Positions 3,890 through 48,374 are shown, counted from the stretch's first letter. The stretch: 64,000 bases of DNA from Nitrospirota bacterium (GCA_963721805.1 CAVRJY010000001.1:1424081-1488080), one strand, 5' to 3'. Translations and numbers: made by a program. The notes: generated from the letters alone by a model not told the origin.

Positions 3890-5998
3890 CTATCGGATGC
3901 GCTCCAGGTTTGCGAACTTAAGCGCGAGGCGCTTGATCCCGATGACAGGGAAGTTGACCGTGATCTTCTGCTCCTCGCCTTCGCCATAGCAGTCGCGCAC
4001 GACCCCGACGCCCCACTTGGGGTGCTTGACGCGCGTGCCGACGGCATACGCGGCGGCGGGCTTGAAGGTCTTCAGCTTCTTGGACGAGCACGCGCTCGCC
4101 CCGGCCGGGACGGCCTTCAGCAGCTTCTCGATCGTAAGGCAGCTCTCCTCGGGTATGTGGGCGAGGAACCGCGAGGGCTCCTGCTCCTGGAGGCGCGCGT
4201 AGAGGCGGCGTTTCTTGGCACCCGTGAGCCACAGGAGGTCCTTTGCGCGGGTCATCCCGACGTACAGGAGCCTGCGCTCCTCGTCGATCTCGGCCTCGCT
4301 CTCGGCCTTGAAGTAAGGCAGCACTCCCTCCTCGACGCCCGCTATGAACACGGCCGGGAACTCGAGGCCCTTGGCGCTGTGCAGCGTCATCAGAGTCACT
4401 GCCTGCACGCTGTTGTCTTCCTCTATGGCGCTCAGCAGCGAGATCGAGTCGATGTAGTCTTTTATGTCCCTGCCCGAGGCGGCCTCGATCAGGAAGCGGA
4501 CGTTTTCGGCGCGGTCGTCCTCTGCGTAGTTTGAGTATCCGCTCTTGATGAACACGTCGCGGAGCATCTCGGCCGCGTCGGTGTATTTCTCCTTGCGCAG
4601 GGCCTCGACGAGCTTGACGAACTCCTCGAGCTTCTCCTTCGCCACCGCGGTGATCGAGCCGCTCTTTATGACCTCTTTAAGCGCGTCATAGAGGCTCGTG
4701 CCCTTCTTCTTGGCCTCCTGCTCGACCTTCGAGAGCGTCGATGCGCCGATGCCCCTCGGGGGGGTGTTGATGACGCGGCGCAGGCTGACGTTGTCGCTTG
4801 CGTTGAGGGCAAGGCGCATGTATGCGGTTATGTCCTTGATCTCCTTGCGGTGGTAGAAATTCGTGCCCCCCAGGATGCGGTAGGGTATGCGCTCGTGGCG
4901 CATGGCGTCCTCGATCGGGCGCGACTGGATGTTGATGCGGTACAGGATGGCCGCCTGCGAATAGTCGTATATGCCCTTGAGGTAAAGCTCCTTGATCATC
5001 TTTACGATATACTTGGCCTCTTCGCCCTCGGTGTCGAACCAGCAGCGGCAGATCTTCTCTCCGGCGCCGCGGTCTGACCAGAGCTTCTTGGGCTTGCGCT
5101 TCAGGTTGTTGCTGATTATATGGTCCGAGGCGTCGAGGATCGACTGCGTGGAGCGGTAGTTCTGCTCCAGCTTTATCAGTTTGGCCTTGGGGAAGTCCTT
5201 CTCGAAGTTCAGTATGTTCTGGACGTTGGCGCCCCTGAAGCCGTATATGCTCTGGTCGTCGTCGCCCACCACGCAGAGCTGGCTACCGGACTTTTCGGCC
5301 AGGAGCTTCAGCAGGCGGTACTGGGCAATATTCGTGTCCTGAAACTCATCGACCAGGACGTGCTCGAACTGGTTGCGGTATTTTTTGAGCACCTGAGGGT
5401 GCGACTCGAAGAGGTTGACCGTGACCATGATGAGGTCGTCGAAGTCCAGGGCGTTGCAGCGTTTGAGCTCGTCCTGGTACCGCACGTAGACCCGCGCGAG
5501 CTTCTCCTCGAACCCGAAGCCGTTTCCGTTCGTGAGGAATTCCTGCGGCGTTATGAACGCGGATTTAAGCGCGCTGATGCGCGAGAGGATGCCCTTGTAG
5601 AGCGCCTCGTGGATCTTGAACTCGGTCAGGATGTGGCGGATCAGGCTGCACTGGTCGTCGTCGTCGTAGATGGAGAAATCGCGCCTGTAACCCATCGTCT
5701 CGATCTCGGCCCTCAGCAGCCTCATGCACTGCGAGTGGAACGTCCCGATCCAGCTGCCCTTGAGGTCTTTTTTCAGAAGGCTCGAGATGCGCTCGCGCAT
5801 CTCACCGGCGGCCTTGTTCGTGAACGTCACGCTCAGGATCGATTTTGGCGACGATTTCCTGGCCAGGTGGGCGTAGCGGTGCGTTATGACGCGCGTCTTG
5901 CCGCTTCCGGCCCCGGCGAGTATCAACAACGGGCTTCCGTTATGAAGCACGGCCTCTTTTTGCTGCGGGTTCAGGTTTTCCGACGTTGGGTGTGCCAT
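3890..5998 (-). CDS. pcrA: UvrD/PcrA-family ATP-dependent DNA helicase
   Basis: 702 aa with LNPQQKEAV, the AGAGSGKT Walker A and VDEFQDTN. Confidence 0.9.
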   Translation of the reverse strand: MAHPTSENLNPQQKEAVLHNGSPLLILAGAGSGKTRVITHRYAHLARKSSPKSILSVTFTNKAAGEMRERISSLLKKDLKGSWIGTFHSQCMRLLRAEIETMGYRRDFSIYDDDDQCSLIRHILTEFKIHEALYKGILSRISALKSAFITPQEFLTNGNGFGFEEKLARVYVRYQDELKRCNALDFDDLIMVTVNLFESHPQVLKKYRNQFEHVLVDEFQDTNIAQYRLLKLLAEKSGSQLCVVGDDDQSIYGFRGANVQNILNFEKDFPKAKLIKLEQNYRSTQSILDASDHIISNNLKRKPKKLWSDRGAGEKICRCWFDTEGEEAKYIVKMIKELYLKGIYDYSQAAILYRINIQSRPIEDAMRHERIPYRILGGTNFYHRKEIKDITAYMRLALNASDNVSLRRVINTPPRGIGASTLSKVEQEAKKKGTSLYDALKEVIKSGSITAVAKEKLEEFVKLVEALRKEKYTDAAEMLRDVFIKSGYSNYAEDDRAENVRFLIEAASGRDIKDYIDSISLLSAIEEDNSVQAVTLMTLHSAKGLEFPAVFIAGVEEGVLPYFKAESEAEIDEERRLLYVGMTRAKDLLWLTGAKKRRLYARLQEQEPSRFLAHIPEESCLTIEKLLKAVPAGASACSSKKLKTFKPAAAYAVGTRVKHPKWGVGVVRDCYGEGEEQKITVNFPVIGIKRLALKFANLERIR

Positions 5999-6036
5999 CT
6001 ATTCGTAATTATAACACAGGCGGTGTTTTCAATGTA

Positions 6037-7869
<1,833 letters not shown>

Positions 7870-7873
7870 GGCC

Positions 7874-9268
7874 TCAGACCTTCTTCTTTTTCTTGGCCCA
7901 GCCGGGTACAATGCGCTGCCGGATGCGGCTTATCACAAGCGCCTCGGCCGGGACCTCAGAGGTGACGGTCGTTCCTGCGCCGACGTATGCTCCCCGGCCG
8001 ACCTTCACTGGCGCCACGAGCTGAGTGTCGCTGCCGATGAAGACGCCGTCGCCGATCTCGGTGCGGTGCTTGCGGGCGCCGTCGTAGTTGCAGGTGATCG
8101 TGCCGGCGCCGACGTTGACGCCCTTGCCGATAGTGGCGTCGCCCAGGTAGCTCAGGTGCATGGCCTTGGTGCCCTCGCCGATCACGGACTTCTTGACCTC
8201 GACGAAGTTGCCTATGCGCACGTCGCGCTTTAGCACCGCTCCGGGCCTGAGATGAGCATAGGGGCCGACCTGCGTCCCTGCGCCGACGCTCGCCTCCTCG
8301 ATCACCGAGCCGTCCTTGATCGTCGCGCCCTCGGCAATCGTGCTTTGGCTGATGCGCGCGTTGGGCATGATCGTGCAGCGCGGGCCGATTACAGTATTGC
8401 CCTCTATATGCACGTTTGGGTATATGACCGTATCCGGGCCGATCCTGGCCTCGGGGGATATGAATGTCGATATCGGGTCCAGGAGCGTCACGCCCGAGTC
8501 GAGCAGCCGAGCGTTCGTCCTCCACTGCATGGCCTTTGTGGCCTCGACGAGGTCGATGCGCGTGTTGATGCCCAGGAATTCGTACTCGTCCGGGGCCATG
8601 AACGCCCCGGCCTTGAGGCCATTGCCCTGCGAAAGCTCGATGATGTCGGTGAGGTATAATTCCTTCTTTTTCGGGTTAGGCTTGATGGACTTAAGAAGTG
8701 CGAGCGCCTCGGGCTCGATGGCGTAAAGCCCGCTGTTGACCTCGCGCACCGCGAGTTCGTCCTCGGTGGCGTCGGCGGCCTCGACTATGCGGATGCGGCC
8801 CCCGGGCTCGCGGATGAGCCTGCCGTATGCAGCCGGATCGGACGAGTTAAACGTCGCGACCGAGACCGCGTTGCAGGCCCTGCGATGGCGGCCGAGAAAT
8901 GCCCTGAGGGTAGGGGAGCCAATAAGCGGCGTATCACCGTTTAAGACCACGACCGTGCCCTTGAACTTCGCAATCGCCGAAAGCCCGGCCATGAGCGCGT
9001 GAGCGGTGCCGTTTTGCTCTTCCTGAAGCGCAATCCGCACCGAGGGATACCCGTCGCAGATCGATCCGGCCACCAGCTCGGCGCTGTGCGCCCCGGCCAC
9101 GACGACCGTCTCGGTAAACCCGAGCGCACGGACCGCATCGAGGATGTAATGCAGCATCGGCCGGCCGAATACCGGATGGAGCACCTTCGGGATGCGCGAG
9201 CGCATGCGCGTGCCGAGCCCTGCCGCCAGCACCACGCACGATGCCGGTTCTTTTTTACTTGCAGCCAT
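7874..9268 (-). CDS. glmU: bifunctional GlcNAc-1-P uridyltransferase / GlcN-1-P acetyltransferase
   Basis: LAAGLGTRMRS N-terminus and hexapeptide-repeat C-terminal half. Confidence 0.9.
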   Translation of the reverse strand: MAASKKEPASCVVLAAGLGTRMRSRIPKVLHPVFGRPMLHYILDAVRALGFTETVVVAGAHSAELVAGSICDGYPSVRIALQEEQNGTAHALMAGLSAIAKFKGTVVVLNGDTPLIGSPTLRAFLGRHRRACNAVSVATFNSSDPAAYGRLIREPGGRIRIVEAADATEDELAVREVNSGLYAIEPEALALLKSIKPNPKKKELYLTDIIELSQGNGLKAGAFMAPDEYEFLGINTRIDLVEATKAMQWRTNARLLDSGVTLLDPISTFISPEARIGPDTVIYPNVHIEGNTVIGPRCTIMPNARISQSTIAEGATIKDGSVIEEASVGAGTQVGPYAHLRPGAVLKRDVRIGNFVEVKKSVIGEGTKAMHLSYLGDATIGKGVNVGAGTITCNYDGARKHRTEIGDGVFIGSDTQLVAPVKVGRGAYVGAGTTVTSEVPAEALVISRIRQRIVPGWAKKKKKV

Positions 9269-25439: not shown

Positions 25440-26740
25440 TCAGAGAGGCAACCTGCCGTCCAGGGAGTGACGCCTGGCGCGGACGATCTCGACGTGGACG
25501 GTCTGGTTGATAAGCGCGGGGTCGCCCGGGAGGTTGACGACCTTGTTGGTGCGGGTGCGGCCGGTAAGCATAGCGGGGTCGGTCTCGCTCGGGCCCTCGA
25601 CGAGCACTTCGAGCACCGAGCCGACGAGCGGGATGTTAATCTCGAGCGTGATAGCATCCTGAAGCTCGAGTATCTCGCCCAGCCTCGCGGACGAGACCGC
25701 CTCGTCGAGCTGGCCATCCATAGTGGCGGCCTTGGTGCCCGGCCGGGGTGAGTACTTGAATGCGAATATGCCGTCGTACCGGACCTCGCGGAGCATACGC
25801 ACGGTGTCTTGGTGGTCCGCGTCCGTCTCGCCGGGGAACCCGGCTATGATGTCGGTCGTGAGGGCGATACTCGGCACCCTGGCCCGGAGTCGCCTGACCT
25901 TGTCGAGGTATGCCTCGGCGGTATACCCCCGGTTCATTAACCGCAGTATGCGGGTCGAGCCGGACTGCATCGGCAGGTGCAGGTGCTCGCAGAGCTTCGG
26001 AAGCTCGGCTATCGCGTCGATGAGCGCATCCGAGAGGTCGCGGGGGTGAGAGGTTACGAACCTCACGCGCTCGATCCCCCCTACCCGGTCTATCGCCCTG
26101 AGCAGGGAAGGGAAGTCCAGGTCGCTCTTGTATGAGTTGACGTTCTGTCCGAGCAGCGTCACCTCTTTGCATCCGTCGCGACCCAGGGCCTCGATCTCGA
26201 CGATGATGCTCCGCAGACGGGCGGCTGCGCTCGCGGCCGCGCGTGTATGGCACTATGCAGTAGCTAGCAGAAGTTGTTGCAGCCGTACATGATCGAGACC
26301 CATGCGCGCGCCCTATCCTTCCGGCTGACCGGAAGCTCCATCAGCGCGATCTCGGGATTGTCCTCGACCGCTATGCCGGTCGTGGCCGCAAGCAGCCCCG
26401 GCAGGGTATGGAGGTTCTGGGGGCCGATCACGTAGTCCACGACGCCCTCGACCGACTGAAACAGCTTGTCGCCCATCTGCTGGGCTATGCAGCCGGCGGC
26501 GACGACCTTGAGATCGGGGCGCTGCTTCTTGATGGCCTTGAGGCGGCCCAGTTCGCTCATGAACTTCTGTTCGGCCTTCTGGCGGATGGAGCAGGTATTG
26601 AAGACTATAATGTCGGCATCCTCGTATGAGCCGGTCTCGGTGTGGCCCTCGTTCATTAGCAACCCGGCCATCTTTTCGGAATCGTGGACGTTCATTTGGC
26701 AGCCGAAGGTATGGATGTGAAATCGTTTCCCGTTACTCAT
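25440..26740 (-). pseudogene. miaB: tRNA i6A37 methylthiotransferase MiaB, needs two 1-nt frame corrections (near 26263 and 26208)
   Basis: 26264..26740 ends ...IMYGCNNFC*. A second frame reads SYCIVPYTRGRERSRPSAE. A third frame reads IIVEIEALGRDGCKEVTLLGQNVNSYK and runs to the stop at 25440. Confidence 0.85.
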
Positions 26741-26792: not shown

Positions 26793-26916
26793 GAAAGCGC
26801 GCGAAACTCGCGTGATACGTTGTCACGGCTCGAAAGCCGCTCCCTCGGAGTACATCACGGTACACCTGCGGTCGGCTTTCTCGCCGTTCCTAGTCTGACA
26901 CGATTTCTCGCGCTTT
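26793..26916. repeat. ~124-nt imperfect palindromic element, copy 1 (inverted relative to 32378..32500)
   Basis: The reverse complement aligns by hand with 32378..32500, with about 10 mismatches and 3 one-nt gaps. The termini AAAGCGCG..CGCGCTTT are self-complementary. Confidence 0.8.
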
Positions 26917-27008
26917 GCGGGGTTAGACGCGGCACAGCCGCTGGACCCCGCACCCCAAGGTCAACGGCTTTAATTGGATAGCCATGGTGTAGAGAGTTAT
27001 ACTAAGCC

Positions 27009-27805
27009 ATGATCCACTGGATACGAGACCACAGGCGCGCGGAACTAAGAAAGCGGCCGTTCCCGGCTGAATGGGAGGCGATAGTGCGCCGAAACGTGGC
27101 GCACTACTGCGTGCTGGACGACGCGGAGCGCGCCGAACTTCAGGCGATGATGCAGGTATTCATCGAGGAGAAGCACTGGGAGGGCTGTGGCGGCCTTGAA
27201 CTCACCGAGGAGATGAGGTGATCATCGCGGCGCAGGCCTGCCTGTTGCAGCTCGGGCTAGCGCATGACTATTACCGCAATGTGCAGTCGATCCTTGTCTA
27301 TCCCTCGACCGTGGTGCCGCCGGAGTATCACCCCGGGGTGTTCGAGCGGGTGGACGGCCCGGTGGCCTCTCCGGTTCCCTTATTAGGTCAGGCATTCAGC
27401 CAGGGGCCGGTGATACTGGTCTGGGACGCGGTCTTGCGCGGTGCGCGCCACCCGGAACAGGGGCATAATCTTGTCTATCATGAGTTCAGCCACAAGCTCG
27501 ACATGCTGGACGGTGCCGCTGACGGCACGCCGCCGATAGCGGACAAGGCCCAGTTCGCGGAGTGGGTGGTGGTGTGCTCCAGAGAGTTCCTGCGGCTTAG
27601 GGGCCTTGCCGCCAAGGGACATAAGACGTTCCTCGACTCATACGGCGCTACAAACGAGGCCGAGTTCTTCGCGGTCGCGACTGAGGAGTTCTTCGACAGG
27701 CCGCTTGCACTTAAAGAACATGCCCCGGCGCTATACCATGTCCTGAGCGCCTACTACCGCCAAGACCCGGCGGGACGCGTCAACCGCACCTGTCCCATTA
27801 AGTAG
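27009..27805 (+). pseudogene. mtfA: MtfA-like zinc metallopeptidase (M90), 1-nt frameshift near 27218
   Basis: 27009..27221 ends LELTEEMR*, and 27218..27805 continues VIIAAQACLL...YHEFSHKLD...NEAEFFAVATEEFF. One missing G in AGG(G)TG would join them. Confidence 0.8.
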
Positions 27806-27822
27806 TTGGTGATGTTAATACG

Positions 27823-27952
27823 CTAACTCAAAAAATCTTCAACATTTTTTTCGAGCCAAGACATGCAAGCTCGGAAATGTGCTAGATCATCATCAGATAT
27901 ATTCTTAGCGTGTGCGTCAATCCTATGTTTATTTATAACCTTCATCTTTAAC
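27823..27952 (-). pseudogene. detached 3-prime fragment of the AT-rich NTPase gene (HEPN-like motif region)
   Basis: My translation is WFSLKMKVINKHRIDAHAKNISDDDLAHFRACMSWLEKNVEDFLS*. It is AT-rich like 28545..30422 and is separated from that gene only by the IS200/IS605 element. Confidence 0.6.
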
Positions 27953-27970
27953 GAAAACCATGCCAGTATG

Positions 27971-27990
27971 CCCCGTGGCTTGCCACGGGG
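27971..27990. repeat. IS200/IS605 left-end hairpin CCCCGTGGCTTGCCACGGGG
   Basis: Perfect palindrome, identical to 28521..28540. Confidence 0.8.
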
Positions 27991-28074
27991 ATGAATGGCA
28001 TCCCTGCCGGGGGGATGTAAGGGGGGCTGGAAGTCCCCCTTTCCCGCCGAGGCAATTGCGGGCTATCATGAGGC

Positions 28075-28506
28075 ATGGGGTTACGCAGGACGAGTCACGC
28101 TGTATATGACACCGGGTACCATCTGGTATGGTGTCCTAAGTATCGCAAGAGACTGTTCGCGCAAAGTTACATGCGCGAGCGGTGCGCGGAACTTTTCAGG
28201 GAGATAGCTGAAGAGTATGAATATGAGATAGTGGAGATGGAAGTGGCGGAGGACCATGTGCATATATTTCTATCGTTCCCGCCACGGTACTCGATAGGGG
28301 TGGTGGTCAGAACCCTGAAAAGTATCAGCGCCCGTGAGCTGTTCAAGCAATACCCATCGCTGAGGCAAAGACTATGGAAGGGTGAGCTGTGGGAGGATGG
28401 GTACTTTGCGCGGACAGTCGGGGACAGCTTGACCTCGGAAATGATCCGCAAATACATACGCGGCCACAGAGCAGAGAAGCAATTGCCTGCGCAGCTGGAC
28501 TTATAG
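28075..28506 (+). CDS. tnpA: IS200/IS605-family Y1 (HUH) transposase TnpA
   Basis: YHLVWCPKYRKRLF, HVHIFLSFPP (HUH) and a C-terminal MIRKYIRGH tyrosine. Confidence 0.9.
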   Translation: MGLRRTSHAVYDTGYHLVWCPKYRKRLFAQSYMRERCAELFREIAEEYEYEIVEMEVAEDHVHIFLSFPPRYSIGVVVRTLKSISARELFKQYPSLRQRLWKGELWEDGYFARTVGDSLTSEMIRKYIRGHRAEKQLPAQLDL

Positions 28507-28520
28507 CTGCGCCACGGATG

Positions 28521-28540
28521 CCCCGTGGCTTGCCACGGGG
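28521..28540. repeat. IS200/IS605 right-end hairpin CCCCGTGGCTTGCCACGGGG
   Basis: Identical to 27971..27990. Confidence 0.8.
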
Positions 28541-28544
28541 AGCT

Positions 28545-30422
28545 TCACTCAAAATCGCTAAGATCTTTGCCGAATATGTTTTTGAAGGTCGGCCATTCTT
28601 TTGAAATAATATTTGTCAAATCTCGAAAGTAAATTTCACAAATATTGGGGTCGAATAAATCCTTATAAGAAATTGCTTGATATTTCTTTGATCTAGGTTC
28701 GGCATATATTTTTAAGACATTTGCTTTTGCTTTATTTTGACCTAATTGTGCTAAGAGTTGTGATTTGATTATTTTCCTGATTTTGGGTTCAATAAGATTT
28801 CTTCTCTCGGAAATCTCACTAATTTTTTCTTCTTTTGTTAGTTTCATTTTTTTAAATTTATTTTTCTTAAGGAGGTATTTGTTAATTGCATCAATTCTAA
28901 AATCATATTGTCCGCGCTGATTCTTCTCAATAATGCCATATCCTATTAAGTGATTAGTATATTCAGGTGAATTTTCAGCTAAGGTATGGAAGAAATCAAT
29001 GTCGCCCAGAGCTAGTTGTTTTAACATTTCGTATTCGTCAGGATAATTCCTTTCTAACACGTCTAAAACCATTTCAAAGTAGTCAGAGTGTCTATCCTCG
29101 AATTCTTGTTTGCAATTGTTGTATAAAATTCTGTCAATATTAGTTGGGCGATCTCCATTACTATTCAGATGGATATAACTGCATAGTTGTCTAATTAAGA
29201 ATGGATGTCCGCCATAGTCCTCTGTTAATTTTGCAAATAATACATCATCAAATCTCAAGCCCATAAAGTTACCAAGTTTGGAAACCATATCTTGAGTTTG
29301 AGATACACCGAATCTTTCAATATAATAAAATGGAACTGAGTTATAGATTGGGTTGTCTTTTCCATTAATACTTGATTTTTCGACACACATAGGATTGGTT
29401 CCTACTATGCAATATGAAAAGATATTATCCAGCGCTTGAAAAGATGATCGAATAGACTGCCAGAAGAAAATAAAGTCGTTGTCGTGAGCCCAATGAGTTG
29501 ATGCTGAAATGTTGAAGGTTATATTCTCAATCTCATCGAAAAAAATCAGTATTTGTTTATCGCCAAGTTTTCTATGTAACTTCTGAATATCTTCTCTAAA
29601 GAGTATCGCAGCGTTTTTTTCTGTATATTCATTTTCTGGTCTTATTTCGGTTGACAGATGAAAAGTATCTTTCAATTTGTTAACAATAAAATGCAACGCT
29701 TCATTCCATCGTCTCCTATTAAAAGACGTGTCCTGACAATCAATAACAATTGAAACATCTTCATCTCTAGCAAGCGCTCGCTGGACGCCATAAATTACAG
29801 ATGTTTTACCTGATTTTCTTAAGCCAAATAATCCAGAGTTTTCATTGGAGTGATGTCGACTAATTATGTCATGCACAATATCTCTTCTGCCAAAGAAATA
29901 TAAATCCTTTTTTAGGGCTGATTGGAAGGAAAATAGATCGCGCGAAAAAAAATGTTTCTTAAATCTATTAATTAGAAAGAACGAGTCGTCATTGCTTTGA
30001 AGCTCATCATAAGAAAAAGGCACAACAATCTGGAGTTCTTTGTCTTGCATCAATAGGTCAGAGATTTTTGATCCTATATTGTTGTCCTTGCTAATGAAAA
30101 CACTACAGATTCTTTCAATGCGCAAAGTCTGATGCATCTTTACTACTTCATCAATTGAATCTAATGCCCTTGGCTCAAAATCAGGATATGCGCTAAAAAT
30201 AACAATGATTTCCCTTTCGATATTAAACATTTCGCTATAATGTTGAGTCGCCTTCATTAGTAGGTAGTTATAGCTGCTTTTTATTTTGTTTCCCATCGTA
30301 ACTGTACCACTTCTTGTAACATACCATTCTTTAGAAAGCTTACCTATCACTTGTTGCTCCTCTGAAGTAAATCCATACAATTTAACTTGAGGATGACGTC
30401 CCGGTACGACGACTCTATTCAC
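28545..30422 (-). CDS. AT-rich P-loop NTPase (Arch_ATPase/STAND-like) with unknown N-terminal domain; C-terminal HEPN-like region truncated by IS insertion
   Basis: FFGRRD..GLFGLRKSGKTS (Walker A) and ILIFFDEIEN (Walker B). GGGAGG RBS before GTG 30422. G+C was about 32-37% in sampled lines. Confidence 0.75.
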   Translation of the reverse strand: MNRVVVPGRHPQVKLYGFTSEEQQVIGKLSKEWYVTRSGTVTMGNKIKSSYNYLLMKATQHYSEMFNIEREIIVIFSAYPDFEPRALDSIDEVVKMHQTLRIERICSVFISKDNNIGSKISDLLMQDKELQIVVPFSYDELQSNDDSFFLINRFKKHFFSRDLFSFQSALKKDLYFFGRRDIVHDIISRHHSNENSGLFGLRKSGKTSVIYGVQRALARDEDVSIVIDCQDTSFNRRRWNEALHFIVNKLKDTFHLSTEIRPENEYTEKNAAILFREDIQKLHRKLGDKQILIFFDEIENITFNISASTHWAHDNDFIFFWQSIRSSFQALDNIFSYCIVGTNPMCVEKSSINGKDNPIYNSVPFYYIERFGVSQTQDMVSKLGNFMGLRFDDVLFAKLTEDYGGHPFLIRQLCSYIHLNSNGDRPTNIDRILYNNCKQEFEDRHSDYFEMVLDVLERNYPDEYEMLKQLALGDIDFFHTLAENSPEYTNHLIGYGIIEKNQRGQYDFRIDAINKYLLKKNKFKKMKLTKEEKISEISERRNLIEPKIRKIIKSQLLAQLGQNKAKANVLKIYAEPRSKKYQAISYKDLFDPNICEIYFRDLTNIISKEWPTFKNIFGKDLSDFE

Positions 30423-30456
30423 TTAAAGCCTCCCTATACAAATATTAAATAACAGT

Positions 30457-30563: not shown

Positions 30564-30571
30564 CCCCGGAA
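30564..30571. repeat. 8-bp target-site duplication CCCCGGAA (left)
   Basis: Identical 8-mer directly abuts both IS481 ends. Confidence 0.75.
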
Positions 30572-31771
30572 TGTAAAGGTTACGCTCTTACCGGACAGTA
30601 TCAGGCTGGAAAAAGCAGGCGGCAGCCAGCCCTTCCATCGGTTAGAATGTTTCACCACAAAACACAGACCGAAGGAGGAAGGGCATGACTGCCAAAGAAA
30701 AGATATCACAAGGGAGGCTTTCAATGCTTCAGCTGGCCGAGAGGCTCAGGAACGTGTCGGAGGCCTGTCGCCGCCGGGGGGTGAGCCGCAGCCAGTTTTA
30801 CGAGTACAAGCGGGCGTTTCAGGAGCAGGGGTTTGCGGGGCTCGCGGACCTTCCGCCGATAGCGCGTAGCTGTCCCCACAAGACGCCTGAGGAGGCCCGC
30901 AAGCGAGTGATCGAGATGAGCCTTGCTCACCCCCGGTGGGGGAAGCAGCGCATCTTCGAGCACCTGCTTCTGGAGGGCATATTGGTGCGTCCCTCAACTG
31001 TGTATCGCATCCAGGTTCGCGAGGGGCTGGAGTCGAAGGCCAAGCGCATCCTCCGGCTTGAGCAGGAGGCTAACGGCAAGGAGATCGAGCTAACGGAGGA
31101 GCAGGTCAAGCTCATCGAGCGGGCCAATCCGTGCTTCAGGGAAAGGCATGTGGAGAGCGCATATCCGGGCTATCTGCTCAGCCAGGACACCTTCACGGTG
31201 GGCAAGCTCAAGGGCATCGGGACCGTGTATCTGCAGGCCGTGGTGGACACGTACGGCTCTTATGCCTTCGGCAAGCTGTACACGTCGAAGAGGCCCGAGA
31301 CGGCGGCCGACGTGCTCTACGACCGCGTGCTGCCGTTTTACGAGGACCATGGCATCAGGGTCCAGCATGTCCTGACGGACAACGGCTCGGAGTACTGCGG
31401 CAAGCTGCTGCGGCATCCGTACGAGCTGTTTCTGGCGCTTCACGACATCGCGCATCGAAGGACGAAGGTGGCGACACCGAGGACAAACGGATTCGTGGAG
31501 CGGTTTAATCGCACCATCCTGGACGAGTTCTTCTCGGAGACGTTCAGGTACCGGTTCTACGCATCGCTCGATGAGCTGCAGTATGACCTCGACCGGTGGC
31601 TGCACCACTACAACAACGAGCGCCCTCACAAGGGCTATCGCAACATGGGCAGACGGCCAATAGAAACTATCGAGCTGGGCAAAAAGCTAAGACAGAAAGC
31701 TGAGGAGGAGGCCGCCTGATCAGTGCGACCGATGAGATGGAAAACTGTCCGGAGAGCACTGGACTTTTACA
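30572..31771 (+). mobile_element. IS481-family insertion sequence (1200 bp)
   Basis: 28-bp imperfect terminal inverted repeats TGTAAAGGTTACGCTCTTACCGGACAGT / TGTAAAAGTCCAGTGCTCTCCGGACAGT (20 of 28 identical), flanked by the 8-bp direct repeat. Confidence 0.85.
30685..31719 (+). CDS. IS481-family DDE transposase
   Basis: N-terminal HTH, then an rve core with SQDTF, LTDNGSEY and TNGFVERFNRT. Confidence 0.9.
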   Translation: MTAKEKISQGRLSMLQLAERLRNVSEACRRRGVSRSQFYEYKRAFQEQGFAGLADLPPIARSCPHKTPEEARKRVIEMSLAHPRWGKQRIFEHLLLEGILVRPSTVYRIQVREGLESKAKRILRLEQEANGKEIELTEEQVKLIERANPCFRERHVESAYPGYLLSQDTFTVGKLKGIGTVYLQAVVDTYGSYAFGKLYTSKRPETAADVLYDRVLPFYEDHGIRVQHVLTDNGSEYCGKLLRHPYELFLALHDIAHRRTKVATPRTNGFVERFNRTILDEFFSETFRYRFYASLDELQYDLDRWLHHYNNERPHKGYRNMGRRPIETIELGKKLRQKAEEEAA

Positions 31772-31779
31772 CCCCGGAA
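31772..31779. repeat. 8-bp target-site duplication CCCCGGAA (right)
   Basis: Identical to 30564..30571. Confidence 0.75.
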
Positions 31780-31789
31780 CCAGTCAATA

Positions 31790-31829
31790 GGAACTGGTTC
31801 CATGGAACCAGTTCCTAGGAACCAGTTCC
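31790..31829. repeat. three tandem 12-bp GGAAC-NN-GTTCC sites at 14-bp period (a fourth, degenerate copy is split by the IS481)
   Basis: GGAACTGGTTCC at GGAACCAGTTCC ta GGAACCAGTTCC. With the IS removed, GGAACCAGTCAA precedes them at the same 14-bp spacing. Confidence 0.8.
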
Positions 31830-31866
31830 CATGGACGCGTTCCGCCCTGCCGTTCTATCATCGCGC

Positions 31867-31995
31867 ATGAAAAAGACAGATGCAGTAAAGAGAGACATGG
31901 CAAGGGCGATGGTTGAGGCGGGACTGACGTACCGCGAGGTAGCGGACAAGCTCGATATAAGCATCGGGACGGTGCACAGCATCGTCGTCGAATAA
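31867..31995 (+). CDS. small helix-turn-helix protein (42 aa; may be the first piece of a longer frame-disrupted gene)
   Basis: My translation is MKKTDAVKRDMARAMVEAGLTYREVADKLDISIGTVHSIVVE*. It is below the ORF-track size cutoff. Protein-like continuation appears in other frames up to about 32298. Confidence 0.4.
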   Translation: MKKTDAVKRDMARAMVEAGLTYREVADKLDISIGTVHSIVVE

Positions 31996-32377
31996 GGCGG
32001 ACGACCCTACACCGCTCGCGCGGGACATCCGCAGCAGGTTCAGTGCGCGGTGCATGATGATGGCGGACGAGATGCTTGGAGGATATCGGAGGCTCAGATA
32101 TCGCAGCGTCACCGCTAGCAGCAGGTGATCATCTCGATGGCGATACTGCTGGACAAGGCCGCCGTGCTCGAGAAGGAACAGGCACCCGAGAAAGGCCGCA
32201 GCGGCAAACATCCGAACTCCAAACACGGAGGAGCAGAAATAAATGATGATTTCCAGAGGGTTGAGTCTGCGTCCTTCCCGTTCATCCGAACGCACTAAAA
32301 AAATACGCGCGGCGGTATGCGGTAGGTATGTTCTAACTATGCCGTTGACCGCTCGCACGATTATGCAGGGGAAGGTT

Positions 32378-32500
32378 AAAGCGCGAGAAATCGACTTCAG
32401 ACTAGGAACGGCGAGAAGACCGACCGCAGGTGTACTGTGATGTACTCCGAGGGCGAGGCTTCGAGCCGTGACGACGTATCAAGCGATTTGGCGCGCTTTG
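32378..32500. repeat. ~124-nt imperfect palindromic element, copy 2
   Basis: See 26793..26916. It lies 16 nt downstream of the zapA stop. Confidence 0.8.
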
Positions 32501-33748: not shown

Positions 33749-35668
33749 TTAAAGTGAGCCGAGGGTCCCGATGTACTGCGGGTAAATCCTGTAGTGGTAG
33801 TATGACGATAGGATGCGCTTGACGTAATCGCGCGTCTCCTGATAGGGGATGTCCTCGATGAACTCGTCGGGGTCGCGCAGGCGCTTTGCGTGGTCCATCC
33901 ACGAGTGGACCTTGTCGGCCCCGGCGTTGTAAGCGGCCAGGGCGCGCGGCACCGAGTTGAACTCCCTGATCAGCGTGGCGAGATAGTGCACGCCCATGCG
34001 GATGTTGTTGTCGGCGTCCATGATCGAGACCCGGTCCGAGACGCCCTTGATGTTCAGGCTCGATGCCATGCGGTGCGCGGTCTGGGGCATGAGCTGCATG
34101 AGCCCTATCGCACCGGCAGGGGAGTACGCCTCGGGGTCATACCTGCTCTCCTCGCGGATCACCGAGAGGACGAGGAACGGGTCGATGCCGTTATGCAGGG
34201 CCGCGTCCGAGATCACCGGCCAGTAGGCCATGGGATAGAGTATGTCGTCAGGGCGCGGCTCGTCCTTGATCCTGTATATCGCGGCGAGCGCGTCGTGGTA
34301 GCGGCCGAGGTCCTTAAGCCGGTAGGCGGCCTCGGTTACCCGGCGGTCGTCGTGCGCGGTCTCGGCCCTGGCGAGCAGCTCGCGCCCGGCCTCCTCGCCG
34401 AGCCCGACCGCCACGAGCGCGTCTATGCGCTCGTCAGGGGTGATGCAGGGCGCGGCCGACTGTACGGGAGGTGGCGGGGCCGGGGCCTTTTTGTATACGT
34501 GAGCCATGAGGCCGTAGAAGCCGTTATCGTCGATCTTTGCATATATATGTCCCGCGCCCTTGCCAGCGCGCTCAGTGGCGCGGCCCTCCCAGTAGAGGTA
34601 CCGCGGGGATTTGTACGTGTCGTAGAGCGAGGAGAAGACGCTGGCGGCGCTGTTGTAATTGCCCACGGCATACAGCGTCCAGCCCATGCGCCATACCGCC
34701 TCCTCGCGCAGGGACGCAGAGACGTCCGAGACCTTCACGAATATGCCGAGCGCCTCGGCCGCATGGCCCTCGCGGCGCTTCTCCTCGCCCATCGCGATCA
34801 GGAGCTCGCCGGCCTTGGGCTCGCGCGCCGCGACGAGCGCCTGCATCACGGCCTCGAACTTCGCGATCTTCCCGGCCCTCAGGTAAGAGCGCGCGGCGAG
34901 GTAGCCCTGCCCCACCCCCTCGCAGACCGGCCCGGCCTCGGCGTACCGCTTCTGCCTGAAGAGGCAGTATGCGAGCTTCTCGGTCGCGGCGTTACTGATC
35001 GCCGGGGGCAGAGACATCTGCATAGCCTTCTTGATAGTCGCCTCGGCCTCGGCGTACTCCATCGCGTCTATCAGGTTAGCCGAGCGGGTGAGCAGATCAT
35101 CCGCGCTGAGGGCCGAGGTGTCGATCTCCAGCGCGGCGGCCTTCGCATTGCGGCCCGCGCGGATGTAGATATCCTTGAACAATTTTCGCGCGCGGCCGGT
35201 ATCCCCCGAGCGCTTGAGCACCGTAGCAAGCAGGAACTCAGCATCGGCGTCGGCCGGGTGCTGCGCAGTGTACTTATCAAGTTCGGCGAGCAGGCGGGCG
35301 TCTTGGCCCGAGTCCTTCAGCACCTGTATGAGCAGGGCCTCGCGCCTGGCAGGGGAATCCGGGTATGCGCGGGCCATTTCATTGAGCGCGTCCTCTGCCA
35401 TGCCATAGGACTTGAGCCCGTCGAGCGCCTTGGCGCGGAAGTAGAGCGCGAAGTCTCCGAGCACGGGCAGCGAGGATCGGGCGGAGGTAAACTTCTCGGC
35501 AGCCGAGGCATAGTCGCCGGAGCGGTAGCGTTGCAACGCATCCCTGAAGACCCTTATGCCGTCTTCGTTTGCGGCGATTGCTAATGAAGGGACGATGAGG
35601 ATGACAACGAGGACTAACGCTAAGAAGGAGGGAGTATGGAGGCGGCGAGCGGACTTGAACCGCTGCAT
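33749..35668 (-). CDS. soluble lytic murein transglycosylase (Slt70-like)
   Basis: IREESRYDPEAYSPAGAIGLMQLMP SLT motif. The only start that keeps the signal peptide (MQRFKSARRLHTPSFLALVLVVILIVPSLAIA) is ATG 35666-35668, which lies inside tRNA-Cys. Confidence 0.75.
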   Translation of the reverse strand: MQRFKSARRLHTPSFLALVLVVILIVPSLAIAANEDGIRVFRDALQRYRSGDYASAAEKFTSARSSLPVLGDFALYFRAKALDGLKSYGMAEDALNEMARAYPDSPARREALLIQVLKDSGQDARLLAELDKYTAQHPADADAEFLLATVLKRSGDTGRARKLFKDIYIRAGRNAKAAALEIDTSALSADDLLTRSANLIDAMEYAEAEATIKKAMQMSLPPAISNAATEKLAYCLFRQKRYAEAGPVCEGVGQGYLAARSYLRAGKIAKFEAVMQALVAAREPKAGELLIAMGEEKRREGHAAEALGIFVKVSDVSASLREEAVWRMGWTLYAVGNYNSAASVFSSLYDTYKSPRYLYWEGRATERAGKGAGHIYAKIDDNGFYGLMAHVYKKAPAPPPPVQSAAPCITPDERIDALVAVGLGEEAGRELLARAETAHDDRRVTEAAYRLKDLGRYHDALAAIYRIKDEPRPDDILYPMAYWPVISDAALHNGIDPFLVLSVIREESRYDPEAYSPAGAIGLMQLMPQTAHRMASSLNIKGVSDRVSIMDADNNIRMGVHYLATLIREFNSVPRALAAYNAGADKVHSWMDHAKRLRDPDEFIEDIPYQETRDYVKRILSSYYHYRIYPQYIGTLGSL

Positions 35669-35712
35669 GAAGGTTTTGCAGACCTCTCCCTTAGCCACTT
35701 GGGTACGCCGCC
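35637..35712 (-). tRNA. tRNA-Cys (GCA), CCA encoded
   Basis: Hand fold gives a 7-bp acceptor GGCGGCG/CGCCGCC, anticodon loop CTGCAAA, T-loop TTCAAGT and discriminator U73. Confidence 0.9.
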
Positions 35713-35727
35713 GATCAGACTTAAATT

Positions 35728-35802
35728 TGGAGCGGGAGACGGGATTCGAACCCGCGACCCCAACCTTGGCAAGGTTGTGCTCTACCACTGAGCTACTCCC
35801 GC
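35728..35802 (-). tRNA. tRNA-Gly (GCC), CCA encoded
   Basis: GCGGGAGTAGCTCAGTGGTAGAGC..., anticodon loop TTGCCAA and T-arm GCGGGTTCGAATCCCGT. Confidence 0.9.
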
Positions 35803-48275: not shown

Positions 48276-48277
48276 AT

Positions 48278-48374
48278 GGCGAGAGCGTGTGGGAATCGAA
48301 CCCACCCTGCCCCGATTAGGGGGCAACACTGGATTTGAAGTCCAGGAGGGACACCAGAGCCCTATACGCTCCCA
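48278..48374 (-). tRNA. selC: tRNA-Sec (UCA), CCA encoded
   Basis: Hand fold gives an 8-bp acceptor GGGAGCGT/ACGCTCTC, a 5-bp T stem GTGGG/CCCAC, anticodon loop CTTCAAA, a long variable arm TGCCCC..GGGGCA and discriminator G. Length is 97 nt. Confidence 0.9.

What the first reader, a model, noticed from the sequence alone, without database searches (positions are those of the whole stretch)
27823..30422. AT-rich, IS-flanked P-loop NTPase with an unrecognised N-terminal domain and a HEPN-like tail: candidate single-gene defence or abortive-infection module
Seen in the sequence:
- 28545..30422(-) has about 32-37% G+C in the 60-nt lines I counted, against about 65% in neighbouring genes. It is therefore foreign DNA.
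- It has its own GGGAGG RBS and a TTGAAT-N17-TATTAT promoter-like site.
- The 625-aa product carries YFFGRRD, then GLFGLRKSGKTS (Walker A) and KQILIFFDEIEN (Walker B). This is the layout I associate with Arch_ATPase/ORC-like STAND NTPases.
- Residues 1-175 match nothing I recognise.
- The last ~110 aa (ISERRNLIEPKIRKIIKSQLL...YFRDLTNIISKEWPTFKNIFG), together with the detached fragment 27823..27952 (LKMKVINKHRIDAHAKNISDDDLAHF...), follow the pattern I remember for Swt1/Abi-type HEPN domains.

Established knowledge: NTPase-HEPN fusions recur in abortive-infection and other conflict systems and sit in mobile, compositionally atypical DNA.

Inference: this is an NTP-gated RNase-type defence gene whose exact family, and especially its N-terminal domain, may be undescribed.

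Caveat: the motif here is R-x3-H, one residue shorter than the canonical R-x4-6-H.
Basis: partly seen in the sequence, partly recalled or inferred. Interest (0 to 1): 0.8.

Follow-up and report, generated by a model that had tools for sequence, protein, structure and literature searches.

The report
IS-broken NTPase–HEPN candidate phage-defence gene
An AT-rich, horizontally acquired gene for a three-part ATPase protein of an unnamed but widespread family has been cut near its 3' end by a small insertion sequence. Relatives of this gene sit in known anti-phage hotspots, which makes the family a good untested candidate for a single-gene phage-defence system.

Summary
Window 28548..30422(-) plus 27823..27951(-) are two pieces of one 667-codon gene. 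It has 34% G+C in a 60% G+C genome. A 596-bp IS200-type element (27952..28547) splits it and removes the last 42 codons, which hold the invariant N-x2-R-x3-H motif. An IS481-like element lies 143 bp upstream.

The restored protein aligns end to end with a large unnamed family: more than 1,500 clusters, 413 of 185,579 species representatives and more than 20 phyla, at 40-55% identity. Members are always a lone gene and are almost always more AT-rich than the host.

The protein has three parts:
- An N-terminal α/β domain with no sequence family, which weakly resembles the restriction-endonuclease-like Rpb5 N-domain.
- A P-loop NTPase of the AAA_35/ATPase_2/nSTAND neighbourhood with a GGHP helical module.
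- A C-terminal helical domain that hits only Pfam HEPN_Swt1, just below threshold (E 1.3e-5, 25.9 vs 27.5 bits).

Context supports a defence role. In E. coli the gene sits between int and psu of P4-like satellites, a validated anti-phage hotspot. Elsewhere it is integrase-adjacent cargo, on Klebsiella IncF plasmids, or next to toxin-antitoxin (TA), restriction-modification (RM) and AbiV genes.

The family is not in PADLOC v2, NCBIfam or the PDB. RNase activity and defence are untested, and the window copy is inactivated.

The parts
28548..30422 (-). 5' part of the disrupted gene (codons 1-625). The TGA at 28545..28547 that ends the ORF belongs to the IS end.
27823..27951 (-). 3' part of the same gene (codons 626-667 plus stop), detached by the IS.
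   Evidence: The in-frame join aligns without a gap to 40 relatives.
27952..28547 (+). IS200/IS605-family insertion sequence, 596 bp (boundary ambiguous by 1 nt). tnpA is at 28075..28506. Identical hairpins CCCCGTGGCTTGCCACGGGG lie at 27971-27990 and 28521-28540. There is no target duplication.
   Evidence: Pfam Y1_Tnp E 6.7e-42; repeats D4/I7; junction
29907..30422 (-). N-terminal α/β domain (residues 1-172) with no sequence family. Invariant or ≥97% conserved residues: E22, T36, F66, N67, E71, R85, R101, S111, E129.
   Evidence: AF2 pLDDT 88.8. Foldseek best matches are Rpb5 N-domains and restriction-endonuclease-like proteins, all weak. No Pfam hit.
29388..29906 (-). P-loop NTPase core (residues 173-345): YFFGR motif, Walker A at 29799..29834, Walker B at 29523..29558, T342-N343.
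28860..29387 (-). Helical module after the NTPase (residues 346-521) with invariant G404-G405-H406-P407 and R411.
   Evidence: AAA_35 profile coverage extends to about residue 420-518 in relatives. This module was not modelled.
28548..28859 (-). First 104 residues of the C-terminal HEPN-like domain (residues 522-625) with E536, R540, R541, N542, E545 and R549 on helix 1.
27910..27933 (-). Codons for the conserved N632-x2-R635-x3-H639 motif, now separated from the rest of the gene.
30429..30434 (-). GGGAGG Shine-Dalgarno-like sequence, 6 nt before the GTG start.
30572..31771 (+). IS481-like insertion sequence with transposase at 30685..31719. It has imperfect terminal inverted repeats and an 8-bp duplication CCCCGGAA at 30564-30571 and 31772-31779. 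It lies 143 bp upstream of the gene.
   Evidence: Pfam rve_3/HTH_32/rve; I4

Best explanation
The locus is a recently inactivated copy of a horizontally acquired, single-gene conflict system.

Shown:
- One 667-codon AT-rich gene was cut 42 codons before its end by an IS200-type element.
- Apart from that, the gene is undecayed.
- It belongs to a large, patchily distributed, strongly conserved family. Members have an N-terminal novel α/β domain, a P-loop NTPase of the AAA_35/STAND neighbourhood with a GGHP helical module, and a C-terminal helical domain most like Swt1-type HEPN.
- The gene travels alone as cargo of satellites, integrative elements and plasmids.

Inferred mechanism:
- The protein rests as an inactive monomer.
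- An infection-associated cue is sensed by the N-terminal domain and/or the helical module. The whole protein is uniformly conserved and some relatives carry extra cold-shock-type nucleic-acid-binding domains. The cue is therefore probably a nucleic acid or another invariant feature, not a fast-evolving phage protein.
- NTP binding then drives oligomerisation.
- Oligomerisation pairs the C-terminal domains, so their invariant Arg/His (with the ERRN..E..R helix) form a composite RNase site.
- The site cleaves cellular and/or phage RNA and aborts the infection.
- In this window the IS has removed the R/H motif, so the copy cannot act this way.
For: Gene structure and IS:
-.
- No decay: the restored protein departs from the family at 3 of 137 columns that are ≥90% conserved, which equals the family median.

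Family size and spread:
- 1,549 clusters.
- 413 species representatives in more than 20 phyla.
- 448 representatives of 50%-identity clusters carry the N-domain.
- 76 of 80 loci hold an intact ORF of at least 600 aa, mostly 650-700 aa.

Foreign composition everywhere: gene G+C is a median 14 points below the flanks.

Domains:
- NTPase motifs are ≥97% conserved, with Pfam hits.
- HEPN_Swt1 is the only recurrent hit for the tail (13/34 members, best 6.2e-5, consensus 1.3e-5).
- The HEPN proteins 4nqf and 2hsb are the top Foldseek hits, although not significant.
- R635 and H639 are ≥97% conserved.
- Relatives with the same chassis carry RNNDLH or RNNDGYH at the same place.
- Some relatives have cold-shock-like N-terminal fusions.

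No partner gene: no family occurs in more than 3 of 144 immediate neighbours. The recurrent ones are RM methylases, a PDDEXK nuclease, RT and TerB.

Defence and mobile context:
- E. coli copies lie between int and psu of P4-like satellites at tRNA-Sec. This is the hotspot shown to be a reservoir of anti-phage systems (PMC9122126), and WP_021563882 is listed there as 'AAA_35'.
- In Bacteroides the gene is cargo next to two integrases.
- It is on Klebsiella IncF plasmids beside VapBC.
- It lies beside ParE/PIN, MmeI-like RM and AbiV genes.
- It is absent from phage genomes.
Against: - No experiment exists for any member.
- The HEPN assignment is below Pfam's gathering score.
- Foldseek matches are not significant (E 0.25-0.46, TM 0.31-0.38).
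- The motif is Rx3H, not Rx4-6H.
- hhalign between this tail and the Ralstonia-type tail with a canonical motif found nothing.
- PADLOC v2 gives only a weak hit to the candidate PDC-M34B.
- Many immediate neighbours are ordinary housekeeping genes. I could not compute a quantitative defence-island enrichment.
- Uniform conservation is unusual for an arms-race sensor.
- Oligomerisation, the trigger and the RNA target are pure inference by analogy.
Confidence: 0.6

Rival explanations
1. The N-terminal restriction-endonuclease-like domain is the effector (a DNase or other nuclease), as in Avs proteins with N-terminal nuclease effectors. The C-terminal HEPN-like domain would then be a non-catalytic RNA/ligand sensor or dimerisation module.
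For: - The position of the N-domain mirrors the effector position of Avs/STAND proteins.
- Weak but recurrent fold matches to Rpb5 N-domain, Nt.BspD6I, VC1899, Dna2, Cap4 and 'restriction endonuclease' or PD-(D/E)XK viral proteins.
- Invariant charged residues E22, E71, R85, R101 and E129.
- The N-domain plus NTPase chassis is retained in Ralstonia and Deinococcus relatives while the tail diverges.
- Rx3H is outside the canonical catalytic spacing.
Against: - No PD-(D/E)xK motif can be placed on the predicted strands.
- All fold matches have TM about 0.35 or less, and the best E-value is 1.5e-3.
- R635 and H639 are ≥97% conserved, which is hard to explain for a non-catalytic module.
Confidence: 0.15
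2. The gene is a maintenance or competition factor of mobile elements (an addiction-type or exclusion-type ATPase acting on rival elements or on the host) and not an anti-phage system.
For: - It is repeatedly adjacent to tyrosine integrases or recombinases at the edge of integrative elements and on plasmids near replication, partition and TA genes.
- It has no partner gene.
Against: - Many copies sit between housekeeping genes with no element visible.
- The int-psu slot of P4 satellites is occupied by validated anti-phage systems.
- A single toxic gene without an antitoxin is not a classical addiction module.
Confidence: 0.12
3. It is a housekeeping or regulatory NTPase of the host that happens to be AT-rich. 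The IS insertion would be irrelevant.
For: Strong conservation of sequence along the whole protein.
Against: - Present in only about 0.2% of species representatives, with a patchy spread over more than 20 phyla.
- Composition is foreign in nearly every host.
- 5 of 5,426 E. coli genomes carry it, all three inspected copies in a satellite.
- No conserved operon partner.
- It is dispensable here, since it is disrupted.
Confidence: 0.03

Closest known systems
Swt1-like HEPN fusions to STAND/AAA+ NTPases (Anantharaman et al. 2013, PMC3710099; e.g. Npun_F6454-type STAND-TPR-S1 proteins and Ava_2192 HEPN+DUF499 ATPase)
   Same: - One polypeptide combines a Swt1-type HEPN-like domain with a P-loop NTPase.
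- Some relatives also carry cold-shock/S1-like OB folds.
- The predicted role is in conflict systems.
   Different: - Here the HEPN-like domain is C-terminal, where the paper describes N-terminal HEPN in the STAND fusions.
- There are no TPR repeats.
- An additional novel N-terminal α/β domain is present.
- The motif is Rx3H.
- The score is below the PF18731 threshold.
- I could not check whether this exact family was in that paper's supplementary lists.
Avs / AVAST and Rst_TIR-NLR antiviral STAND NTPases
   Same: - Single-gene architecture with a central STAND-type NTPase. The TIR-NLR NTPase also matches AAA_35 in the HHpred table of Rousset et al..
- Occupancy of the P4 int-psu hotspot.
- Expected activation by oligomerisation.
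   Different: - No C-terminal repeat sensor of 400 aa or more. The tail is a 145-aa HEPN-like domain.
- The protein is only 667 aa.
- No PADLOC AVAST/Avs model is matched.
- The polarity of effector and sensor is uncertain.
PrrC / RloC anticodon nucleases
   Same: - One protein has an N-terminal regulatory NTPase and a C-terminal HEPN-class RNase.
- It stays latent until infection, and the outcome is abortive infection.
- This is the best mechanistic analogy.
   Different: - PrrC/RloC use ABC/Rad50-type ATPases and are coupled to a type I RM system.
- There is no sequence match (PADLOC).
- Here the NTPase is of AAA_35/STAND type and the gene is solitary.
PADLOC candidate PDC-M34B
   Same: It is the only PADLOC model touched by the C-terminal domain (E 5e-4 to 4e-3, profile positions about 42-190 of 192).
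   Different: - The match is weak and occurs in only 3 of 6 full-length proteins scanned.
- PDC-M34 is itself an unvalidated candidate.
- I found no description of it in the paper library.
IS200/IS605 family (for the inserted element)
   Same: - Y1 transposase.
- About 600 bp, carrying tnpA only.
- Identical subterminal hairpins.
- Insertion without target duplication. The left-end hairpin starts 19 nt from the junction.
   Different: Nothing unusual. No other copy was found in the window or in the plasmid collection.

Membership tests
HEPN superfamily, Swt1-like (Pfam PF18731) | Score at or above Pfam's gathering threshold (27.5 bits) | tested here: not met
   - Window ORF: no hit, because it is truncated.
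- 13 of 34 relatives hit below threshold, best E 6.2e-5.
- Family consensus: 25.9 bits, E 1.3e-5, covering profile positions 6-101 of 115.
HEPN superfamily, Swt1-like (Pfam PF18731) | R-x4-6-H catalytic motif | tested here: not met
   - The window has R635-I-D-A-H639 (Rx3H).
- The same spacing is found in nearly all of 194 relatives, and R and H are ≥97% conserved.
- Canonical spacing occurs only in a few relatives: RKPDAH, Ralstonia-type RNNDLH and P0242 RNNDGYH.
- The source paper lists HEPN families with a partly conserved or absent motif, so this lowers the membership claim but does not exclude it.
HEPN superfamily, Swt1-like (Pfam PF18731) | All-α four-helix-bundle fold similar to solved HEPN domains | tested here: inconclusive
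   - The AF2 model of a relative's tail has pLDDT 90 and is all helical.
- Foldseek PDB ranks 1-3 are the HEPN proteins 4nqf and 2hsb, but with E 0.25-0.46 and TM 0.31-0.38.
STAND / AAA_35-type P-loop NTPases | Walker A and Walker B motifs, with the GR-x-[DE] motif just upstream of the P-loop | tested here: met
   YFFGRRD, G200-x4-G205-K-T-S208 and D296-E297 are all ≥97% conserved.
STAND / AAA_35-type P-loop NTPases | Pfam model above gathering score | tested here: inconclusive
   - Window protein: only sub-threshold nSTAND1, AAA_14, AAA_22 and AAA_16.
- Consensus: AAA_14 24.6, ATPase_2 24.2 and AAA_35 22.7 bits, all below threshold.
- The E. coli/Klebsiella member passes AAA_35 (30.5 vs 27 bits).
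STAND / AAA_35-type P-loop NTPases | Helical GxP module and winged helix after the NTPase | tested here: inconclusive
   An invariant GGHP(F/Y)L(I/M)R motif lies at 404-411.
Avs / AVAST antiviral STANDs | Large C-terminal repeat sensor (TPR, WD40 and similar, typically ≥400 aa) and a match to Avs models | tested here: not met
   The C-terminal region is 145 aa and HEPN-like. No PADLOC AVAST/Avs hit at E ≤ 1.
PrrC/RloC anticodon nucleases | ABC/Rad50-type ATPase plus a C-terminal ACNase, and linkage to type I RM | tested here: not met
   No PADLOC or Pfam match. The NTPase is of a different class, and there is no conserved neighbour.
PD-(D/E)xK restriction-endonuclease-like fold (N-terminal domain) | αβββαβ core with catalytic D...(D/E)xK | tested here: inconclusive
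   - AF2 pLDDT 88.8, topology α-β-β-α-β-α-β-α-β.
- The best Foldseek matches are Rpb5 N-domains (BFVD E 1.5e-3, probability 0.94; PDB probability 0.84) and a few nucleases, with TM about 0.35 or less.
- No canonical motif could be assigned from the conserved residues.
IS200/IS605 insertion sequences | Y1 (HUH) transposase, subterminal hairpins, no target-site duplication | tested here: met
   Y1_Tnp E 6.7e-42. Identical 20-nt hairpins at both ends. Exact removal restores the reading frame with no duplicated bases.
Occupant of the P4-satellite int-psu anti-phage hotspot (Rousset et al. 2022) | Gene lies between the integrase and psu of a P4-like element | tested here: met
   - This holds for the E. 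coli relative (38% identical to the window protein), not for the window copy.
- Strains KL53, HH107 and C5.
- WP_021563882 is listed in that paper's Table S1A as 'AAA_35'.

The most novel reading that the evidence does not exclude
The family is a new type of single-chain immune sensor. Its N-terminal domain would be a previously unseen fold variant that recognises an invariant infection cue, a nucleic-acid species and not a phage protein. That would explain about 50% identity over the whole length across more than 20 phyla. Through an AAA_35/STAND switch, this domain would license a HEPN RNase with a non-canonical Rx3H active site. Possibly the N-domain also acts as a second, DNA-directed nuclease.
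Probability: 0.2. Interest if true: 0.75.

Novelty: new variant of a known kind. Interest (0 to 1): 0.55.

Why it matters
NTPase-HEPN fusions are a known theme in prokaryotic conflict systems. This particular family is large, strongly conserved and spread over more than 20 phyla. It has no name, no Pfam, NCBIfam or PADLOC model, no solved structure and no experiment.

It has a close-at-hand test case. An intact E. coli copy sits in the P4 int-psu hotspot, where other occupants were validated as anti-phage systems with simple plaque assays.

If it protects, it would add:
- a compact (667 aa) STAND-like system with an uncharacterised N-terminal domain;
- an atypical HEPN motif;
- a probably conserved trigger, which bears on how bacterial STAND-type sensors recognise infection without large repeat sensors.

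For annotating this genome, the practical result is that 27823..30422 is one IS-disrupted pseudogene and not an intact defence gene.

Tried and rejected
- NCBIfam gave no meaningful hit.
- PADLOC v2 gave only the weak PDC-M34B match.
- PDB sequence-profile searches with the whole family and with the tail found nothing. The best match was DNMT1 RFTS at E 1.4.
- A weak DNMT1-RFD Pfam hit in 6 of 34 N-domains (best 0.0056) disappeared with the family consensus. I treat it as chance.
- Foldseek of both domain models against PDB, and of the N-domain against BFVD, gave no match at E ≤ 0.001.
- A profile search of the 5.8-billion-protein set with the tail returned only fragments of the same family.
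- A search with the Ralstonia-type tail returned only fragments without Pfam domains. Its profile did not align significantly with this family's tail and had no Pfam HEPN hit. The 'canonical Rx4H in relatives' argument therefore rests on position in homologous proteins, not on demonstrated domain homology.
- The promoter-like site is no more than chance, and no terminator-like site was found.
- There is no match in phage genomes.
- There is no conserved partner gene, so a two-gene system was rejected.
- The Rfam search of the 125-nt inverted-repeat arms was negative.
- Literature searches for PDC-M34 and AAA_35 were unproductive. The 2026 STAND survey (PMC13581612) has no supplement held as text, so I could not check whether this clade is among its 589.
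Full report
**1. What is in the sequence**

The ORF list shows a 625-aa ORF at 28545..30422(-) and a 40-aa ORF at 27823..27945(-). Between them lies a 143-aa ORF at 28075..28506(+).

Composition:
- Gene: 0.336 G+C.
- Fragment 27823..27951: 0.341.
- The 141 bp upstream of the gene: 0.284.
- Both flanks: 0.60. Whole window: 0.602.

The intervening ORF is an IS200-type Y1 transposase (Pfam Y1_Tnp, E 6.7e-42). An identical 24-nt segment holding the hairpin CCCCGTGGCTTGCCACGGGG occurs at 27968-27991 and 28518-28541. This is the subterminal-hairpin arrangement of IS200/IS605 elements.

Relatives of the protein are 661-680 aa long and end with ...F-[ND]-x-x-M-x-x-I-N-K-Y-R-x-D-A-H-A-K.... This fixes the junction. 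Joining 30422..28548 to 27951..27823 gives an in-frame 667-aa product. It aligns with 40 relatives without any gap at the junction.

The IS is therefore 27952..28547 (596 bp, boundary ambiguous by one C). It inserted without target duplication, and the TGA that ends the 625-aa ORF belongs to the IS.

The idea was right but the coordinates were not.

A second IS lies upstream:
- Its rve/HTH transposase is at 30685..31719.
- Imperfect terminal repeats were found.
- Its TG...CA ends are at 30572 and 31771.
- An 8-bp duplication CCCCGGAA is at 30564-30571 and 31772-31779.
- It starts 143 bp upstream of the GTG start.

Both ISs have host-like G+C (0.56 and 0.59).

Expression signals:
- The GGGAGG Shine-Dalgarno-like sequence is real.
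- The TTGAAT-N17-TATTAT site is real but not above chance for this AT-rich stretch: 8 sites against 8.6±3.0 in shuffles.

**2. State of the gene**

The IS removes the last 42 codons. These include N632, R635, H639, R652 and E659, which are invariant in the 41-sequence alignment. N632, R635 and H639 are also ≥97% conserved among 194 relatives.

Otherwise the gene is undecayed. At the 137 columns that are ≥90% conserved, the restored protein differs at 3, which is exactly the family median.

The insertion is therefore recent, or else the truncated product is still under selection, which I consider less likely.

This contrasts with the neighbouring housekeeping genes. miaB and the mtfA-like gene carry one-base frameshifts. 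These may be assembly indels.

**3. The family**

A search of 5.8 billion proteins returned 1,549 clusters. The top 120 are 49-55% identical over the full length. All are named 'hypothetical' or 'ATP-binding'.

Among 185,579 species-representative genomes, 413 encode a relative. They span Chloroflexota, Cyanobacteria, Bacteroidota, Desulfuromonadota, Spirochaetota, Acidobacteriota, Alpha-, Beta-, Gamma- and Zetaproteobacteria, Campylobacterota, Firmicutes, Verrucomicrobiota, Planctomycetota, Omnitrophota and others.

- 76 of the 80 fetched loci hold an intact ORF of at least 600 aa, mostly 650-700 aa.
- In 75 loci with enough flank, the gene is a median 14 G+C points below its surroundings.
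- An exhaustive HMMER scan with the N-domain profile found 448 representatives of 50%-identity clusters.

So the family is sparse, patchy, strongly conserved and compositionally foreign almost everywhere. This is the signature of a horizontally mobile accessory gene.

**4. Domain anatomy**

(a) Residues 1-172
- No Pfam, NCBIfam, PADLOC or PDB sequence match, either for single members or for the family consensus.
- The AF2 model is confident (pLDDT 88.8) with topology α-β-β-α-β-α-β-α-β-α.
- Foldseek gives nothing at E ≤ 0.001.
- The best-probability matches in both libraries are the N-terminal domain of RNA-polymerase subunit Rpb5. From my own knowledge, this domain is classed as restriction-endonuclease-like. 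The scores are probability 0.84 against PDB, and E 1.5e-3 with probability 0.94 against BFVD.
- Nt.BspD6I, VC1899, Dna2, Cap4 and viral 'restriction endonuclease' or PD-(D/E)XK proteins also appear further down the lists.
- TM-scores are about 0.35 or less, and I could not place a D...(D/E)xK triad on the conserved residues (E22, E71, R85, R101, E129; K57 and D88 are invariant only in the 41-sequence set). I call it 'restriction-endonuclease-like fold, function open'.

(b) Residues 173-345
- A P-loop NTPase with YFFGR-x-D, Walker A G200-x4-GKTS, Walker B D296-E297 and T342-N343.

(c) Residues 346-521
- A helical module with invariant GGHP(F/Y)L(I/M)R.
- For (b) and (c) together, Pfam hits are all just below threshold for the consensus: AAA_14 2.6e-5, ATPase_2 3.3e-5, AAA_35 5.1e-5, nSTAND6 5.7e-4 and nSTAND1 3e-3.
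- The E. coli/Klebsiella member passes AAA_35 (30.5 vs 27 bits). That is why NCBI calls it 'AAA-like domain-containing protein'.
- AAA_35 is also what the STAND module of the validated TIR-NLR system matches in the HHpred table of Rousset et al..

(d) Residues 522-667
- The AF2 model of a relative's tail is all helical with pLDDT 90.
- Scanning 34 tails one by one, 13 hit HEPN_Swt1 (best 6.2e-5). No other family is hit by more than two.
- The family consensus scores 25.9 bits, E 1.3e-5, over profile positions 6-101 of 115. The gathering score is 27.5.
- Foldseek PDB ranks 1-3 are the HEPN-domain proteins 4nqf and 2hsb, but they are not significant.
- The conserved residues form two clusters: E536-x3-R540-R541-N542-x2-E545-x3-R549 on the long first helix, and N632-x2-R635-x3-H639 before the last helix.
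- The Arg-His spacing is one residue shorter than Rx4-6H in nearly all members.
- Relatives with the same chassis have RNNDLH (Ralstonia-type) or RNNDGYH (P0242) at the corresponding place.
- However, profile-profile comparison of the two tail types was not significant.

My reading is a divergent Swt1-like HEPN domain, with probability about 0.8. I do not file it as a PF18731 member.

**5. Variants**

Some family members carry N-terminal extensions of about 70-90 aa or about 350-425 aa.

The long ones (P0214, P0242, P0211) begin with two segments carrying the KGFGFI-type cold-shock signature. Their only PDB sequence matches are cold-shock proteins, and these are weak (E 0.048 and 0.13).

This matches the remark by Anantharaman et al. 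that HEPN-STAND proteins sometimes add cold-shock-like OB folds. It points to nucleic-acid, probably RNA, substrates or cues.

**6. Context**

There is no partner gene. Among 144 immediately adjacent ORFs in 78 loci, no Pfam or PADLOC family occurs more than three times. The families that recur at all are RM methylases, a YhcG PDDEXK nuclease, reverse transcriptases, TerB and HTH_3. The rest are assorted housekeeping genes.

Individual loci:
- Bacteroides: the gene follows two tyrosine integrases in an integrative mobilisable element that splits a MatE gene.
- Nostoc: it lies between ParE and FitA/PIN modules.
- Paenibacillus: it lies just after smpB.
- Sphingobacterium: it is near DUF4238, an M78/HTH pair and an MmeI-like RM gene.
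- One MAG: it is next to HEPN_AbiV.
- Sixteen Klebsiella IncF conjugative plasmids: it is beside a tyrosine recombinase and VapBC.
- Phage genomes: none.

The E. coli result is the most telling. Five of 5,426 complete E. coli genomes carry the gene. In all three that I inspected, it lies between the integrase and psu of a P4-like satellite at tRNA-Sec.

Rousset et al. 2022 showed this slot to be a hotspot that holds known and newly validated anti-phage systems. Their Table S1A lists this very protein, WP_021563882, as 'AAA_35'. It is rare there. As far as the held text shows, it was neither analysed further nor tested.

**7. Mechanism**

Shown: the architecture, the conservation, the solitary mobile lifestyle and the hotspot residence.

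Inferred by analogy with STAND sensors and with HEPN RNases, which need two Rx4-6H motifs brought together (for example PrrC/RloC):
- A cue is sensed.
- NTP-dependent oligomerisation follows.
- The tails pair and an RNase site forms.
- RNA cleavage aborts the infection.

The whole protein is about equally conserved: mean majority-residue frequency is 0.60, 0.64, 0.65 and 0.56 for the four parts. I therefore favour an invariant cue, a nucleic acid, over a fast-evolving phage protein.

The main rival reverses the polarity, with the N-domain as nuclease effector and the tail as sensor. I give the main model 0.6 and the reversed polarity 0.15. I give a mobile-element maintenance role 0.12 and a housekeeping role 0.03.

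**8. Novelty and verdict**

The kind is known: NTPase plus HEPN conflict proteins. This family's architecture, N-domain and Rx3H motif are not described in the libraries or papers I could reach.

The window copy itself is a pseudogene. The value of the finding is the family, and the fact that an intact E. coli hotspot copy makes it directly testable.

Interest is 0.55. Novelty is 'new variant of a known kind'.

Noticed in passing
window 26795-26925 and 32370-32500: - Two copies of a structured element of about 125 nt, 92% identical, lie in inverted orientation 5.5 kb apart.
- They bracket the mtfA-like gene, the AT-rich gene, both ISs and the small ORFs at 31831-32358.
- Each copy has complementary ends (AAAGCGCGCGAAA...TTTCTCGCGCTTT) and folds at -50 kcal/mol (z = -2.3).
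- No Rfam match, and no further copy in the window.
- It could be a small RNA gene, a MITE-like repeat or recombination sites for an inversion.
   Followed up: partly
window 26100-26300 (-) and about 27215 (+): - The miaB-like radical-SAM gene needs two one-base frame changes within about 80 nt to read through (GCNNFC | SYCIVPYTRGRERSR | ...IIVEIEAL).
- The mtfA-like M90 peptidase gene needs one (ORFs 27009..27221 and 27218..27805; a G appears to be missing in AGGGTG).
- These are either assembly indel errors or decay of this region. The foreign gene next door has none.
   Followed up: partly
window 31775-31995: - Directly beyond the IS481-like element there is a cluster of overlapping palindromes built on GGAACCAGTTCC (31775-31844).
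- It is followed by a 54-aa ORF with a Hin/resolvase-type helix-turn-helix look (31831..31995).
- This may be a remnant of the recombinase module of the element that delivered the AT-rich gene.
   Followed up: no
proteins P0214 (1050 aa), P0242 (1039 aa), P0211 (857 aa): - These family members have long N-terminal extensions carrying two cold-shock-like segments (KGFGFI motif; weak PDB matches to cold-shock proteins).
- By eye, these are followed by two OST-HTH/LOTUS-like segments. The LOTUS reading is untested.
- P0242 has a canonical-spacing RNNDGYH motif.
   Followed up: partly
L095 (Ralstonia megaplasmid, 5833..7911) and alignment A6: - A sister family of about 690 aa is 29% identical over the N-domain, NTPase and helical module.
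- Its C-terminal domain is different and unannotated, with an invariant Y-R-[NH]-x3-H-L motif.
- This suggests that the chassis exchanges C-terminal modules.
   Followed up: partly
L098 (E. coli C5) and hit H29: In two of the five E. coli genomes the gene is annotated as two ORFs, so it is split. In strain C5 the satellite's integrase and psu are themselves interrupted by IS621 and ISEc12. The family is repeatedly found inactivated by IS activity or frameshifts.
   Followed up: no
window 35637-35802 (-) and 48277-48373 (-): tRNA-Cys(GCA) and tRNA-Gly(GCC) lie in tandem, and there is a tRNA-Sec(TCA). None is adjacent to the island, so the island did not use them as an integration site here.
   Followed up: no
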